Shown here: positions 40,755 through 42,984 of the stretch, piece after piece
How the letters are laid out: every line of letters begins with the position of its first letter
Position numbering within the stretch: position 1 is the first letter of the stretch
From: a virus
Direction: 5' to 3' (one strand)
DNA length: 64,000 nt
Virus record (IMG/VR): IMGVR_UViG_3300017917_003893
Location: 64,001-128,000 of that record
The notes under the pieces: generated by a model
The model's database searches: none
Seen by the model: the letters and a program-made list of their open reading frames with translations, nothing else
Told to the model about the DNA's origin: nothing
Position numbers and translations under genes: made by a program

Positions 40755-40913
40755 ATGTCAAATTATCAATTAAAAATTTTAGAAAAGTTAGATGATGAGG
40801 ATTGGAATTATCCAAGCGTGGTAAAGGTTGTAATGAAACCTAAATCTGCTATAAACAATCCACCTTTGAAAAAAACGAAATTTTCGAGGTTGATATATAC
40901 TGAACAAAAATAA
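40755..40913 (+). CDS. Small hypothetical protein (52 aa, not in ORF track)
   Basis: MSNYQLKILEKLDDEDWNYP...; starts right after the upstream stop. Confidence 0.45.
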   Translation: MSNYQLKILEKLDDEDWNYPSVVKVVMKPKSAINNPPLKKTKFSRLIYTEQK

Positions 40914-40949
40914 TTAAAAATATTTTTTACAAGATTTAAAACTTTTTCA

Positions 40950-40957
40950 TATCTTTG
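40950..40957 (+). promoter_or_regulatory. Bacteroidota-type -7 element upstream of the ncRNAs
   Basis: TATCTTTG about 27 nt before RNA 1. Confidence 0.55.
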
Positions 40958-40983
40958 TATAAAATAAAAACAAATAAAAAAAC

Positions 40984-41048
40984 CCAGTAGCGAATTGAAG
41001 TGTTACTTCGTATGGATTGAAAAAACACACTTTAATGATTTACTCTGG
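40984..41048 (+). ncRNA. Ro60-associated Y-like RNA 1 (about 65 nt)
   Basis: CCAG/CTGG closing stem, TAGCGA internal loop, ATTGAAGTGT/ACACTTTAAT stem, then TACTTCG. Same architecture as RNA 2. Confidence 0.65.
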
Positions 41049-41066
41049 TCAATATATAGGCTAAAC

Positions 41067-41332
41067 CGCAAGCATAGCGATAGTTTGAGATACTTCGATA
41101 AATATCAATTAAACTATGACAGCCAAAGTGCCGAGCTAACAGCAAAGCTACCTTTCAATCTCCAATTGGCTGATTGATAAAAAGGTGAAAAAGTTCGAAA
41201 AGTACCTCGTAAAGGGCTAAGGAATTCAGAAACTTCCTTTAAATAAAGAACTGAGTGAGATAGTCACTTCAACCATCGGCAAAGTTTCGGGAGAATTCTT
41301 TGTAACGCTTAGGCTAAATTTTCTTGCTTGCG
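41067..41332 (+). ncRNA. Ro60-associated Y-like RNA 2 (about 266 nt) with a large structured insert
   Basis: CGCAAGCA/TGCTTGCG terminal stem, TAGCGA, TAGTTTGAG/CTTAGGCTA stem, TACTTCG, and many internal helices. AATATATA lies at 41051 and a terminator follows. Confidence 0.7.
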
Positions 41333-41344
41333 ATTAACATATAT

Positions 41345-41384
41345 GACCAGATTAACTTTACTGTTAGTCTGGTCTTTTTTTTTT
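41345..41384 (+). terminator. Strong terminator after the Y-like RNAs
   Basis: gaccagattaac-tttact-gttagtctggtc followed by T10. Confidence 0.85.
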
Positions 41385-41394
41385 GAACAAACTC

Positions 41395-41465
41395 GGACAA
41401 GCTCGTGTATCTCGAAAGAGTGAACGGTTTCTAGAGCCAAGGTGGTATCCCACGAGCCTCTGTCC
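41395..41465 (+). ncRNA. Structured multi-way-junction element in the Ro60 leader
   Basis: GGACA/TGTCC and GCTCGTG/CACGAGC stems enclose a CTC-GAAA-GAG hairpin and a GGTT/AGCC hairpin; GC-rich island in an AT-rich background. Confidence 0.55.
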
Positions 41466-41500
41466 CTTAAATAGAAATTAATAAAAATTAAAACGATATT

Positions 41501-42952
41501 ATGTCAAAATTTAACACAACAATGCCAAAGGCAAAAACTCTTACTGAAAACCTAGCAGGTGGTCAAGCTTACTCTCAATCAAATGAGTTAGCTTTAGTTT
41601 CTCTTCTTTTAACATCTTTTGTTAATGATCAGTTCTATAGGAATGCTCAAACGACTCTTGATGAATTGAGAAGCCTTATCACTAAGGTTAAAGATAAAGA
41701 ATTTGTTGCTAAGGCGGCTATATTTGCTCGTGACCGTTTTGGTATGAGAAGTATTACTCATGCTCTTGCTGGTGAATTAACTTCACAACTATCGGGTGCG
41801 GAGTGGGGTAAAAACTTCTACGACAAAGTAGTTGTTCGTGTTGATGATATGACTGAAATCATGTCATACTACTTGGCTTATAAGACATCTAAAGATAGTC
41901 CTAAGTTTCCAAACTCTTTGAAGAAGGGTTTTGCTAAGGCTTTTGATAAGTTTGATGGTTATCAACTTGCTAAGTACAAAGGTGATAACAAAGAAGTTAA
42001 ACTTGTTGACCTTGTTAACATTGTTCACCCAGTTCCAACTGAAAGAAACAAATCTGCTCTTGAGTCACTTGTTAAAGGTGAACTAAAGAACACTCAAACT
42101 TGGGAAGCTAAACTTTCACAAGCAGGGCAAATGGCTGAATCTGAAGAAGATTTGGCTCAACTGAAGGCTGATGCTTGGCAAGAACTTATCTCTACAAGAA
42201 AGATTGGTTACTTTGCTCTTCTTAGAAACTTGAGAAATATCATCACTCAATCACCATCTGCTGTTAAGTCAGCATGTGAGTTGTTAGTTGATGAGAGAAT
42301 GATTAAGAATTCAAGAGTTCTTCCATTCCGTTTCTCAACTGCATATGAAGAAATCTCTAAGTTAGGTTCTTCTAAAGAAGTTCGTGATGTTCTTGTTGCT
42401 ATTAACCAAGCATTGGATATCTCAGTATGTAACGTTCCTAAGTTTGACGGTGAAACACTTGTTGTTATGGACGTTTCTGGTTCAATGAGTGGTAAACCAT
42501 CTGAGATTGCTTCTTTGTTTGGTGCTATTTTAGCTAAAGTTAATAACTGTGATGTTATGACTTTCTCTACTGATGCTCAATATAAGCAATACAATCCAAT
42601 GGATTCAGTGTTGACTATTAGAGGTTCTTTTAGATACTCTGGTGGTGGTACAAACTTTAAGTCTATCTTTCAGAAGGCTAACAAAAAGTATGACAGAGTA
42701 ATTATCTTGTCAGATATGCAAGGTTGGATGGGGTACACTACACCATCTTCTGAGTTTGCTCAGTACAAAAAGAAATACAATGCTAATCCATTTGTATATT
42801 CTTGGGACCTTGCTGGATTGGGTACTTTACAGTTCCCAGAACAAAATGTCTTTGCTTTGGCTGGCTTCAGTGATAAAGTATTTGACATCATGAAAATGAT
42901 GGAGTTAGACAAGAAGGCTCTTTACAATGAGATTAAAGCTATACAGCTTTAA
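41501..42952 (+). CDS. rsr: Ro60/TROVE domain RNA-binding protein with vWA domain
   Basis: NLAGGQAY, DQFY, FARDRFGMRS, YQLAKY, TWE, ALLRNLRNI, LPFRF, MIDAS motif DVSGSM, GGTN and ILSDMQ. Confidence 0.93.
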   Translation: MSKFNTTMPKAKTLTENLAGGQAYSQSNELALVSLLLTSFVNDQFYRNAQTTLDELRSLITKVKDKEFVAKAAIFARDRFGMRSITHALAGELTSQLSGAEWGKNFYDKVVVRVDDMTEIMSYYLAYKTSKDSPKFPNSLKKGFAKAFDKFDGYQLAKYKGDNKEVKLVDLVNIVHPVPTERNKSALESLVKGELKNTQTWEAKLSQAGQMAESEEDLAQLKADAWQELISTRKIGYFALLRNLRNIITQSPSAVKSACELLVDERMIKNSRVLPFRFSTAYEEISKLGSSKEVRDVLVAINQALDISVCNVPKFDGETLVVMDVSGSMSGKPSEIASLFGAILAKVNNCDVMTFSTDAQYKQYNPMDSVLTIRGSFRYSGGGTNFKSIFQKANKKYDRVIILSDMQGWMGYTTPSSEFAQYKKKYNANPFVYSWDLAGLGTLQFPEQNVFALAGFSDKVFDIMKMMELDKKALYNEIKAIQL

Positions 42953-42954
42953 TT

Positions 42955-42984
42955 AAAAAACCCACTTAATGAGTGGGTTTTTTT
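42955..42984. terminator. Bidirectional terminator
   Basis: aaaaaacccact-taatg-agtgggtttttt. Confidence 0.85.

What the first reader, a model, noticed from the sequence alone, without database searches (positions are those of the whole stretch)
40950..42952. Phage Ro60 locus with two co-varying Y-like RNAs
Two elements upstream of the TROVE gene share one architecture: closing stem, TAGCGA, a 10-nt stem strand, TACTTCG, variable region, the complementary strand, an 8-nt loop strand (GATTTACT or AATTTTCT), and the closing stem. The stem sequences differ but pairing is kept, which is direct covariation. RNA 1 (65 nt) follows a host-type promoter and RNA 2 (266 nt) follows the late motif. Established: bacterial Ro60 binds adjacently encoded Y RNAs that tether it to effectors such as PNPase. 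Inference: a phage Ro RNP with exchangeable RNA adaptors for RNA decay, RNA repair or anti-defence.
Basis: partly seen in the sequence, partly recalled or inferred. Interest (0 to 1): 0.85.

Follow-up and report, generated by a model that had tools for sequence, protein, structure and literature searches.

The report
Huge-phage Ro60 gene with two Y RNAs
A very large uncultured phage carries a gene for the ring-shaped RNA-binding protein Ro60, and just upstream of it lie two conserved structured RNAs built on one shared "handle": these are the phage's version of the Y RNAs that partner Ro60 in bacteria, and one of them carries an undescribed 210-base domain where bacterial Y RNAs have a tRNA mimic.

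Summary
Two elements (40984-41050 and 41068-41331, + strand) share one architecture:
- a closing stem;
- a bulged U;
- an AG:CU step;
- an asymmetric loop (CGA opposite a U-rich strand);
- a 9-10 bp stem;
- an invariant UACUUCG.

Both elements, a strong terminator and the TROVE+vWA gene are conserved in more than 25 distinct related huge-phage contigs.

Covariation is strong. In RNA1, 9 of 10 upper-stem pairs show compensatory changes. In the RNA2 closing helix, 7 of 9 do.

The same handle encloses tRNA-like domains next to TROVE genes that are only 29-60% identical. There the Rfam YrlA model (below its threshold) and the tRNA model do hit. So these are divergent Y RNAs.
- RNA1 is a minimal hairpin form, comparable to YrlB or Yrn2.
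- RNA2 replaces the tRNA mimic with a conserved ~210-nt multi-helix domain that matches no Rfam family.

Rfam and ARAGORN find nothing in the window itself.

RNA2 is preceded by the phage's own promoter motif, AATATATA. The "late" and "host-type" promoter labels are not shown. Binding, transcript ends and function are untested.

Phage Ro60 with Y RNAs is already published, and this scan has noted similar handle-RNA loci on many other genomes. I class it as a new variant of a known kind, of moderate interest.

The parts
40936..40965 (+). Conserved promoter-like block upstream of RNA1: TTAAAACTTTTT (40936-47), about 10 nt, then TATAAAAT (40958-65). A phage-type GATATATA motif lies further upstream at 40892-99.
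   Evidence: The block is conserved across 15 related loci. The sigma-70 scan lists it at 9/12 matches, which is not above chance. A similar TAAACTTTT-N13-TTATAAAAT arrangement occurs once more in the genome, before a gene. Promoter function is inferred.
40984..41050 (+). RNA1, a minimal Y-like RNA: the handle (closing stem, bulged U, AG:CU, 3/6 loop, 10-bp stem) capped by UACUUCG and a short A-rich loop.
   Evidence: The covariance model R1 finds it at 85 bits and finds one copy in each of 26 distinct related loci. 97.8% of cells are paired, 9 of 10 upper-stem pairs have compensatory changes, and 0 of 500 shuffles reach the observed values. G-U pairs place the RNA on the + strand.
41051..41058 (+). 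AATATATA, the phage's own upstream (promoter-type) motif, 9 nt before the RNA2 closing stem.
   Evidence: AATATATA is the most enriched 8-mer upstream of genes. It occurs in 47 of 150 upstream 80-nt regions and 59 times in the whole 143-kb record. Its distance to the ATG clusters at 4-5 nt and at about 17-32 nt. TATA-like variants sit at the same place in relatives.
41068..41331 (+). RNA2, a long Y-like RNA: the same handle (41068-41097 with 41308-41331) enclosing a multi-helix domain of about 209 nt (41098-41306).
   Evidence: The closing helix plus the RG:CY step is 98.4% paired, with 7 of 9 pairs changed on both sides. The upper stem covaries between lineages: UAGUUUGAG/CUUAGGCUA, UAAAUUGAG/CUCAGUUUA and UAGAUUGAG/CUCAGUCUA. 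Internal helices are supported. No Rfam match.
41345..41384 (+). Strong intrinsic terminator: a 12-bp hairpin (GACCAGA.../...TCTGGTC) followed by T10. Its 5' arm is complementary to the 3' strand of RNA1 (41044-41051).
   Evidence: Found by the terminator scan and conserved in all relatives. Alternative helix: duplex -15.2 kcal/mol; the full transcript folds to -103.3 with the terminator against -95.7 with the alternative helix forced; a nascent RNA ending at 41362 folds into the alternative helix.
41395..41465 (+). Lineage-specific GC-rich 71-nt insert in the Ro60 leader. It is not part of the conserved core.
   Evidence: Present only in the window and in the L015/L019/L022 lineage and absent from the other relatives. 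Single copy in the genome. Fold z-score only -1.6. No Rfam match.
41501..42952 (+). Ro60 homologue of 483 aa: TROVE domain plus vWA domain with a DVSGS (DxSxS) MIDAS-type motif.
   Evidence: Pfam TROVE 7e-19, with weak VWA_CoxE and vWA_Ro60 matches. PDB hits 9KOP/9L5Y (Thermus phage Ro60) at E 5e-22 and human/Xenopus Ro60 at 6e-6/9e-5. Translation. More than 4800 homologues, some named 60 kDa SS-A/Ro by their source.
42955..42983 (+). Terminator of the Ro60 gene.
   Evidence: 13-bp hairpin with a T tract.

Best explanation
This is a phage Ro60 ribonucleoprotein locus: two Y RNA genes followed by the Ro60 gene.

The handle. Both RNAs are built on one conserved handle, which I infer to be the Ro60-binding module. 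It consists of:
- a closing stem;
- a single bulged U;
- two RG:CY pairs;
- an asymmetric loop, YRA opposite a U-rich strand;
- a 9-10 bp stem;
- UACUUCG at the junction.

Its layout parallels the bulged, loop-interrupted 5'/3' stem of known Y RNAs.

The two RNAs.
- RNA1 is the handle alone, closed by a short loop. It is comparable to the hairpin-type second Y RNAs (YrlB, Yrn2) and would act as a gate or decoy on Ro60.
- RNA2 carries a conserved ~210-nt multi-helix domain in the position where YrlA-type RNAs carry a tRNA mimic. It would tether Ro60 to an effector that is not yet known.

Transcription, as I read it.
- One start lies upstream of RNA1.
- A second start follows the phage motif AATATATA just before RNA2.
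- Most transcripts stop at the strong terminator at 41345-41384, so the RNAs would be made in excess.
- Ro60 mRNA would arise by read-through, or from a start within the terminator region.

Shown: the sequence architecture, its conservation, its covariation, its linkage to TROVE, and the homology of the handle to that of tRNA-mimic Y RNAs.

Inferred: Ro60 binding, transcript ends, the effector, and the biological role (handling of structured or damaged RNA during infection).
For: - The motif pair is far above chance.
- RNA1, RNA2, the terminator and TROVE are syntenic in 19 IMG/VR loci and in LR745206.1.
- Covariation is strong.
- Of 30 strong R1 matches in IMG/VR, 28 have TROVE within about 600 nt downstream. 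One is cut by the end of its locus and one lacks TROVE.
- The same handle encloses T-arm/D-arm domains beside TROVE genes of 29-60% identity. YrlA RF02553 hits these at 30-41 bits, and tRNA RF00005 hits them above its threshold.
- In total 61 distinct handles were compiled. At score >=16 there were 79 observed against 2 in the shuffled control.
- The handle RNAs lie upstream of TROVE in most loci but downstream in L023, so they are genes rather than only a leader.
- The protein is a full-length Ro60 homologue.
- Published precedent: bacterial species have two or more Y RNAs near rsr on the same strand, often processed from one precursor, one tRNA-like and one a long hairpin (PMC4201824). A Thermus phage Ro60 binds two upstream Y-like RNAs (PMC12135203).
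Against: - No Rfam Y_RNA or YrlA match in the window, even at E<=10, and no tRNA-like domain.
- The published GNCGAAN0-1G motif is only approximated. The window has AGCGAAUUG, while orthologues have UAGUGA, UAGUAA or UGGUCA.
- One related phage contig (L051, 32.8 kb with terminal repeats) has RNA1 plus the terminator but no TROVE gene.
- No phage-encoded PNPase/RNase PH or RtcB was found in four near-complete relatives, so the effector is unknown.
Confidence: 0.75

Rival explanations
1. The RNA1-RNA2-terminator unit is mainly a cis-acting leader, an attenuator that sets Ro60 expression. The 3' strand of RNA1 (UCUGGUCA, 41044-51) can pair with the 5' arm of the terminator (UGACCAGA, 41344-51) and so prevent termination. 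If Ro60 binds the RNA1 handle it would hold that strand, let the terminator form and repress its own mRNA. This can coexist with the Y RNA reading.
For: - Only about 33-42 nt with no clear promoter separate the T tract from the ATG in most relatives.
- The complementarity (7-12 bp) is present in all 22 distinct full loci.
- It changes together in the L015/L022 lineage, from CUGGUC/GACCAG to CUGAUU/AAUCAG, giving a 12-bp helix.
- A nascent transcript ending before the terminator's 3' arm folds into the alternative helix. The full-length alternative is only 7.6 kcal/mol above the minimum-energy fold.
Against: - The complementarity follows automatically if the RNA1 closing stem and the terminator stem are sequence duplicates.
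- The flanking AT-rich complementarity is between copies of a palindromic TATA-like promoter motif.
- Only one lineage is informative for covariation.
- Handle RNAs occur downstream of TROVE (L023) and without TROVE (L051).
- A TATA-like motif just before the terminator could instead start Ro60 mRNA inside the hairpin.
- No read-through data exist.
Confidence: 0.2
2. The handle RNAs are partners of some other protein, or are free-standing regulatory RNAs or tRNA-derived relics, and their adjacency to TROVE is only genomic hitch-hiking within RNA-gene clusters.
For: - L051 has RNA1 without TROVE.
- In distant loci the handle RNAs sit inside tRNA arrays and next to GOLLD RNA.
- The canonical Ro60-binding motif is not conserved.
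Against: - The linkage to TROVE holds from 100% down to 29% protein identity, while the flanking genes differ.
- 28 of 30 strong RNA1 matches are TROVE-adjacent.
- Nine of 35 motif hits in the bacterial and archaeal genome collection are TROVE-adjacent, although the pattern is short.
- Purifying selection on structure argues against relics.
Confidence: 0.05

Closest known systems
Bacterial Rsr (Ro60) with YrlA/YrlB (Salmonella, Mycobacterium smegmatis) and Yrn1/Yrn2 (Deinococcus radiodurans); Chen et al. 2014, PMC4201824; Rfam RF02553
   Same: - Two or more small RNAs lie within 2 kb of the Ro60 gene on the same strand, upstream in M. smegmatis and D. radiodurans, where they are processed from one precursor.
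- The 5' and 3' ends pair into a long stem interrupted by a bulge and a loop.
- One RNA is a simple long hairpin and the other carries an effector module.
- Distant members of the handle family found here do carry the T-arm/AS/D-arm module and are hit by RF02553 at 30-41 bits.
   Different: - Neither window RNA has a tRNA-like domain or reaches any Rfam score.
- The handle has its own conserved signature (bulged U, RG:CY, UACUUCG) in place of GNCGAAN0-1G.
- RNA2, at 264 nt, is about twice the published Y RNA size and carries a different multi-helix domain.
- The RNA1 loop is A-rich, not pyrimidine-rich.
Thermus phage phiLo Ro60 with Yrl1/Yrl2 (PMC12135203; PDB 9KOP, 9L5Y)
   Same: - It is the closest solved protein (E 5e-22, full length).
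- It is a phage Ro60 with two Y-like RNAs directly upstream of the gene.
- The RNAs have a stem-bulge-stem layout with a CGAA-type motif in the internal loop. The window's RNA1 has UAGCGAA.
- The paper reports that the phage Ro60, its Yrl RNAs and the host PNPase form ternary complexes.
   Different: - The host and phage type are different.
- The phiLo RNAs were picked by a CGAA motif plus folding, not by comparative analysis.
- No 210-nt domain is described there.
- The CGA here is not conserved among orthologues.
Metazoan Y RNAs (Ro60-binding bulged helix; Stein et al. 2005 and Green et al. 1998, as cited in PMC4201824)
   Same: - A terminal stem is formed by the 5' and 3' ends.
- A single bulged pyrimidine is followed by a short helix and an internal loop.
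- A variable effector region lies beyond the stem.
   Different: - There is no sequence similarity to GGUCCGA.
- The 3' U tract here belongs to a separate terminator hairpin, not to the Y RNA stem.
- The transcription machinery is bacterial or phage.

Membership tests
Ro60 / TROVE proteins | TROVE (HEAT-repeat ring) domain | tested here: met
   Pfam PF05731, E 7e-19, 68.7 bits against a cut-off of 23.
Ro60 / TROVE proteins | C-terminal vWA domain with a MIDAS DxSxS motif | tested here: met
   VWA_CoxE at 1.8e-5 and vWA_Ro60 at 1.7e-4, both just under their cut-offs. A DVSGS motif is present in the translation.
Ro60 / TROVE proteins | Full-length similarity to a structurally solved Ro60 | tested here: met
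   9KOP/9L5Y at E 5e-22 over residues 12-476; human and Xenopus Ro60 at 6e-6 and 9e-5. The ring fold itself was not modelled.
Bacterial/phage Y RNAs (broad sense) | Encoded within 2 kb of the Ro60 gene on the same strand | tested here: met
   RNA1 lies 517 nt and RNA2 433 nt upstream of the ATG, both on the + strand. The same holds in 28 of 30 related matches.
Bacterial/phage Y RNAs (broad sense) | 5' and 3' ends pair into a long stem interrupted by a bulge or internal loop | tested here: met
   Shown by covariation.
Bacterial/phage Y RNAs (broad sense) | GNCGAAN0-1G motif near the 5' end | tested here: inconclusive
   The window's RNA1 has AGCGAAUUG and RNA2 has AGCGAUAG. Orthologues have UAGUGA, UAGUAA or UGGUCA, so only R-G-Y-R-A is conserved.
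Bacterial/phage Y RNAs (broad sense) | Bound and stabilised by Ro60 | not testable with these tools
   Needs RIP, EMSA or a deletion mutant.
YrlA (Rfam RF02553) | tRNA-like module with conserved T and D arms, and a score at or above the gathering score of 69 bits | tested here: not met
   No match at the gathering threshold or at E<=10, and ARAGORN finds nothing. Distant handle RNAs do have the module but score only 30-41 bits.
Hairpin-type second Y RNAs (YrlB, Yrn2) | [quoted passage not shown] | tested here: inconclusive
   RNA1 is a long interrupted hairpin with a 23-nt apical loop, made of UACUUCG, a variable stretch and an A-rich run.
Terminator/antiterminator attenuators | Intrinsic terminator plus a mutually exclusive upstream helix whose formation is controlled by a ligand or protein | tested here: inconclusive
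   The terminator and the competing helix exist in silico and are conserved. Control by Ro60 is untestable here.

The most novel reading that the evidence does not exclude
Two readings remain open.

First, RNA2 may be a new class of Y RNA. Its ~210-nt non-tRNA domain would recruit an effector other than the one, still unknown, that recognises tRNA-like YrlA modules.

Second, the locus may regulate itself. Ro60 binding to the nascent RNA1 handle would decide between the antiterminator helix (41044-51 with 41344-51) and the terminator. That would be a Ro60-sensing attenuator built from its own Y RNA.
Probability: 0.2. Interest if true: 0.7.

Novelty: new variant of a known kind. Interest (0 to 1): 0.45.

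Why it matters
Ro60-Y RNA particles are conserved from bacteria to humans, yet what their variable RNA modules recruit is largely unknown. It is not known even for the tRNA-like YrlA module.

This locus contributes three things.
- A sharply defined, covarying handle shared by minimal, tRNA-mimic and large-domain RNAs. It could serve as a search model for Ro60 partners that the current Rfam model misses.
- A natural case in which the tRNA mimic has been exchanged for another folded domain, which supports the idea of exchangeable adaptors.
- Near-complete relatives of this phage (385-635 kb) that keep the system without their own PNPase or RtcB, which points to host factors or to new effectors.

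It is not a new principle. Phage Ro60 with Y-like RNAs is published, and this scan has already flagged many similar loci.

Tried and rejected
- Rfam at the gathering threshold on the whole window, and at E<=10 on 40850-41550, gave only noise: mir-2160 and CRISPR-DR47, both far under their thresholds.
- ARAGORN found no tRNA or tmRNA.
- The sigma-70 scan found 5 promoter-like sites against 8.0 expected, so it gives no support for a 'host-type' promoter.
The partner loop lies in a hairpin that varies in length and sequence among close relatives, so I treat it as chance.
- I considered a local hairpin AUAGUUU/AAACUAU in RNA2 that would compete with the handle stem. AACU is conserved, but its partner shifts between lineages, whereas the handle stem covaries, so I kept the handle.
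- The 60-aa TTG ORF at 40995-41177 is rejected as a gene. The region shows RNA-type covariation and indels that are not multiples of three.
- The 71-nt GC-rich element is lineage-specific, single-copy and weakly structured, so it is not part of the core.
- RtcB and RNase PH/PNPase domains were sought in the 143-kb record and in four large relatives (three 95-98% complete by CheckV, plus the 635-kb LR745206.1). None was found. Rnl2-type RNA ligases are present but not linked to this locus.
- A covariance model of the whole RNA2 was not built, because calibration would probably have taken too long at that length.
Full report
**What is in the sequence**

The 587-nt gap between a 52-aa ORF (it ends at 40913) and the 483-aa ORF at 41501-42952 holds two elements on the + strand. 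Both contain TAGCGA, ten bases, then TACTTCG. The pattern occurs only at 40988 and 41075 in the 64-kb window. Shuffles expect 0.03 matches.

Each motif is framed by complementary strands.
- RNA1 is 40984-41050.
- RNA2 is 41068-41331.

Above this sit a 9-10 bp stem and UACUUCG. I call this unit the handle.

**Conservation and covariation**

The region matches LR745206.1, a 634,780-bp uncultured phage, at 76% DNA identity. The protein matches 19 IMG/VR loci at 69-94% identity, on contigs of up to 483 kb. The window's own record is a 143-kb fragment that CheckV rates 25% complete.

In every locus the same order holds: RNA1, a spacer of 11-21 nt, RNA2, a terminator hairpin, then TROVE. UACUUCG is invariant in both RNAs.

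RNA1:
- In 15 sequences, 98.8% of cells pair, 7 of 10 upper-stem pairs show compensatory changes, and 0 of 500 shuffles reach the observed score. RNAalifold predicts the same fold.
- In 26 distinct sequences aligned to the model R1, 9 of 10 upper-stem pairs are compensatory and 97.8% of cells pair. Slid controls drop to 33-55%.
- Frequent G-U pairs show that the structure is read on the + strand.

RNA2:
- The closing helix plus the RG:CY step is 98.4% paired, with 7 of 9 pairs changed on both sides. For example GCAAGCA/UGCUUGC becomes GAGGACA/UGUCCUC, and AG:CU becomes GG:CC.
- The upper stem is mis-registered in that alignment by a 1-nt indel. It covaries clearly between lineages when read directly.

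**What the handle is**

A scan of IMG/VR for CAGTAGYRA-N10-TACTTCG gave 116 stretches. Many are chance matches. All 30 that match model R1 strongly (above 60 bits) belong to the RNA1 family:
- 28 have TROVE about 550-680 nt downstream;
- one is cut by the end of its locus;
- one (L051) lacks TROVE.

The same motif also lies next to TROVE genes that are only 29-38% identical (L095, L126, L075). It is also present in L023 and L062, whose records encode TROVE proteins. In these loci the handle encloses tRNA-like domains with canonical T and D arms.

Rfam aligns YrlA (RF02553) end to end to these RNAs. The score is 28-34 bits, E 1e-5 in a local search, which is below the gathering score of 69. It calls others tRNA above threshold.

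A scan of one genome per prokaryotic species found 35 hits. Nine of them lie next to TROVE genes that are 46-60% identical to the window protein. These sit mostly in contigs labelled Bacteroidota, inside tRNA arrays that may be phage DNA. They include both minimal handle hairpins and YrlA-type RNAs scoring 36-41 bits.

A simple handle finder compared real sites with the same sites after shuffling the downstream sequence. At score >=16 it gave 79 against 2. I compiled 61 distinct handles, with inserts from 12 nt to about 300 nt. All stem positions vary, yet 87-100% of them pair, apart from the two end positions.

So the handle is a common scaffold of RNAs linked to Ro60. It can be capped (RNA1), carry a tRNA mimic (distant loci) or carry another domain (RNA2).

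**The protein**

- Pfam finds TROVE at 7e-19, plus weak vWA matches.
- The translation has a DVSGS MIDAS-type motif.
- The best solved relative is the Ro60 of Thermus phage phiLo, E 5e-22 over residues 12-476, followed by human and Xenopus Ro60.
- Thousands of homologues exist, and some are named 60 kDa SS-A/Ro by their source.

**RNA2 insert**

The ~209-nt interior matches no Rfam family and no tRNA model.

In the closest 14 sequences, RNAalifold keeps the handle and predicts the following:
- a 4-bp helix between UUCG of the junction motif and CGRR at 41196-99, supported by one-sided changes only;
- a hairpin of variable length closed by UACC/GGUG;
- hairpins at 41219-39, 41254-68 and 41277-41307.

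Across lineages two hairpins change on both strands: AAGGAA/UUCCUU becomes CAAGAA/UUCUUG, and AGUGA/UCACU becomes AGGAU/AUCCU. Some lineages lack the 41219-39 hairpin.

The domain is therefore a conserved fold. Its detailed topology is only partly established.

**Transcription signals**

AATATATA is the most enriched 8-mer upstream of genes in this genome. It occurs in 47 of 150 upstream regions and 59 times in all. Its distance to the ATG clusters at 4-5 nt and at about 17-32 nt.

One copy lies at 41051-58, 9 nt before RNA2, so RNA2 probably has its own start. The motif also precedes replication, methylase and tail-fibre-like genes, so calling it 'late' is not justified.

Upstream of RNA1 there is a conserved block, TTAAAACTTTTT followed by TATAAAAT, and a GATATATA motif at 40892. 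The sigma-70 scan gives no signal above chance.

Neither RNA1 nor RNA2 ends in a U tract. A 12-bp hairpin plus T10 at 41345-84 ends the unit. In most relatives only 33-42 nt separate it from the ATG.

I infer that the RNAs are made in excess and that Ro60 mRNA comes from read-through or from a start within the terminator region. Published bacterial Y RNAs are likewise processed from polycistronic precursors upstream of rsr (PMC4201824).

**Possible switch**

The 3' strand of RNA1 (41044-51) is complementary to the 5' arm of the terminator (41344-51). A helix of 7-12 bp is possible in all 22 distinct loci. In the L015/L022 lineage both the RNA1 stem and the terminator changed together.

Energies are compatible with a kinetic antiterminator.

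The evidence is weak, for three reasons:
- the two stems may simply be sequence duplicates;
- the neighbouring AT-rich complementarity is between copies of a palindromic TATA-like motif;
- only one lineage is informative.

I give this 0.2.

**Context**

The neighbours are phage replication and nucleotide-metabolism genes, methylases and tail-fibre-like genes: DnaB-type helicase, ribonucleotide reductase, DNA and SAM methyltransferases, and an S74 chaperone domain.

Four large relatives (three rated 95-98% complete, 385-483 kb, plus the 635-kb LR745206.1) encode neither RtcB nor an RNase PH/PNPase domain. Most encode Rnl2-type RNA ligases elsewhere in the genome. Any effector is therefore a host protein or is unknown.

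**Comparison and novelty**

Chen et al. 2014 (PMC4201824) reported YrlA-like RNAs beside Ro60 in 254 bacterial species and 22 phages. They also reported that each studied species has a second, hairpin-type Y RNA. A 2025 paper (PMC12135203) showed that a Thermus phage Ro60 binds two upstream Y-like RNAs and forms complexes with host PNPase. A jumbo-phage survey (PMC7824862) notes TROVE proteins with a tRNA-like partner.

So the kind is known. What I did not find described is:
- this handle signature;
- its use without any tRNA mimic;
- the RNA2 domain.

Earlier notes of this scan report the same sort of handle-RNA arrays beside Ro60-like genes in many other genomes, including close relatives of this phage. 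The finding is therefore not unique within the scan.

Noticed in passing
window 40855-40905: An imperfect inverted repeat (ATCCACCTTTGAAA ... TTTCGAGGTTGAT) directly abuts a GATATATA promoter-type motif. It is conserved at the DNA level in nearly all relatives, with compensatory changes (CCACCUU/AGAGGU against CCACCCU/AGGGU), and there it often follows a terminator. In the window it overlaps the end of the 52-aa ORF 40755-40913, which may therefore be spurious. It could be an operator or a small RNA element.
   Followed up: partly
window 41395-41465: A GC-rich 71-nt element lies in the Ro60 leader. It is present only in this phage and in the distant L015/L019/L022 lineage. It is single-copy in the genome, weakly structured (z -1.6) and has no Rfam match. 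Either it was lost repeatedly or it was inserted twice.
   Followed up: partly
L051:7616-7760 (IMGVR_UViG_3300045911_000135, 32.8 kb, direct terminal repeats): An RNA1-type handle RNA (63.5 bits) is followed after 9 nt by the same GAUCAGA.../...UCUGGUC terminator. There is no RNA2 and no TROVE gene anywhere in the record. This is an orphan Y-like RNA in a much smaller phage.
   Followed up: partly
L075:3190-3605 (- strand) and L174:5471-5949: GOLLD RNA (RF02032; 288 bits in L075, 146 bits in L174) lies in the same RNA-gene cluster as the handle/YrlA-type RNAs, the tRNAs and the TROVE gene.
   Followed up: no
L075, between the second handle RNA and the TROVE gene: An ORF starting MVSFILESMKR sits between a handle RNA (whose 3' half is not evident) and the TROVE gene. 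It may be an inserted gene, possibly a homing endonuclease. I did not check this.
   Followed up: no
L095 and L126, about 450 nt upstream of TROVE: Three tandem handle RNAs. One has the YrlA order (T arm, stem-loop, D arm). The other two have the normal tRNA order (D arm, anticodon-like arm, T arm), with the handle replacing the acceptor end.
   Followed up: partly
whole 143-kb record (window and flanks): The AATATATA motif is often only 4-5 nt from the ATG (for example window 2691, 12882, 34191, 43832-, 49078 and 63587). This implies many leaderless or near-leaderless mRNAs in this phage.
   Followed up: partly
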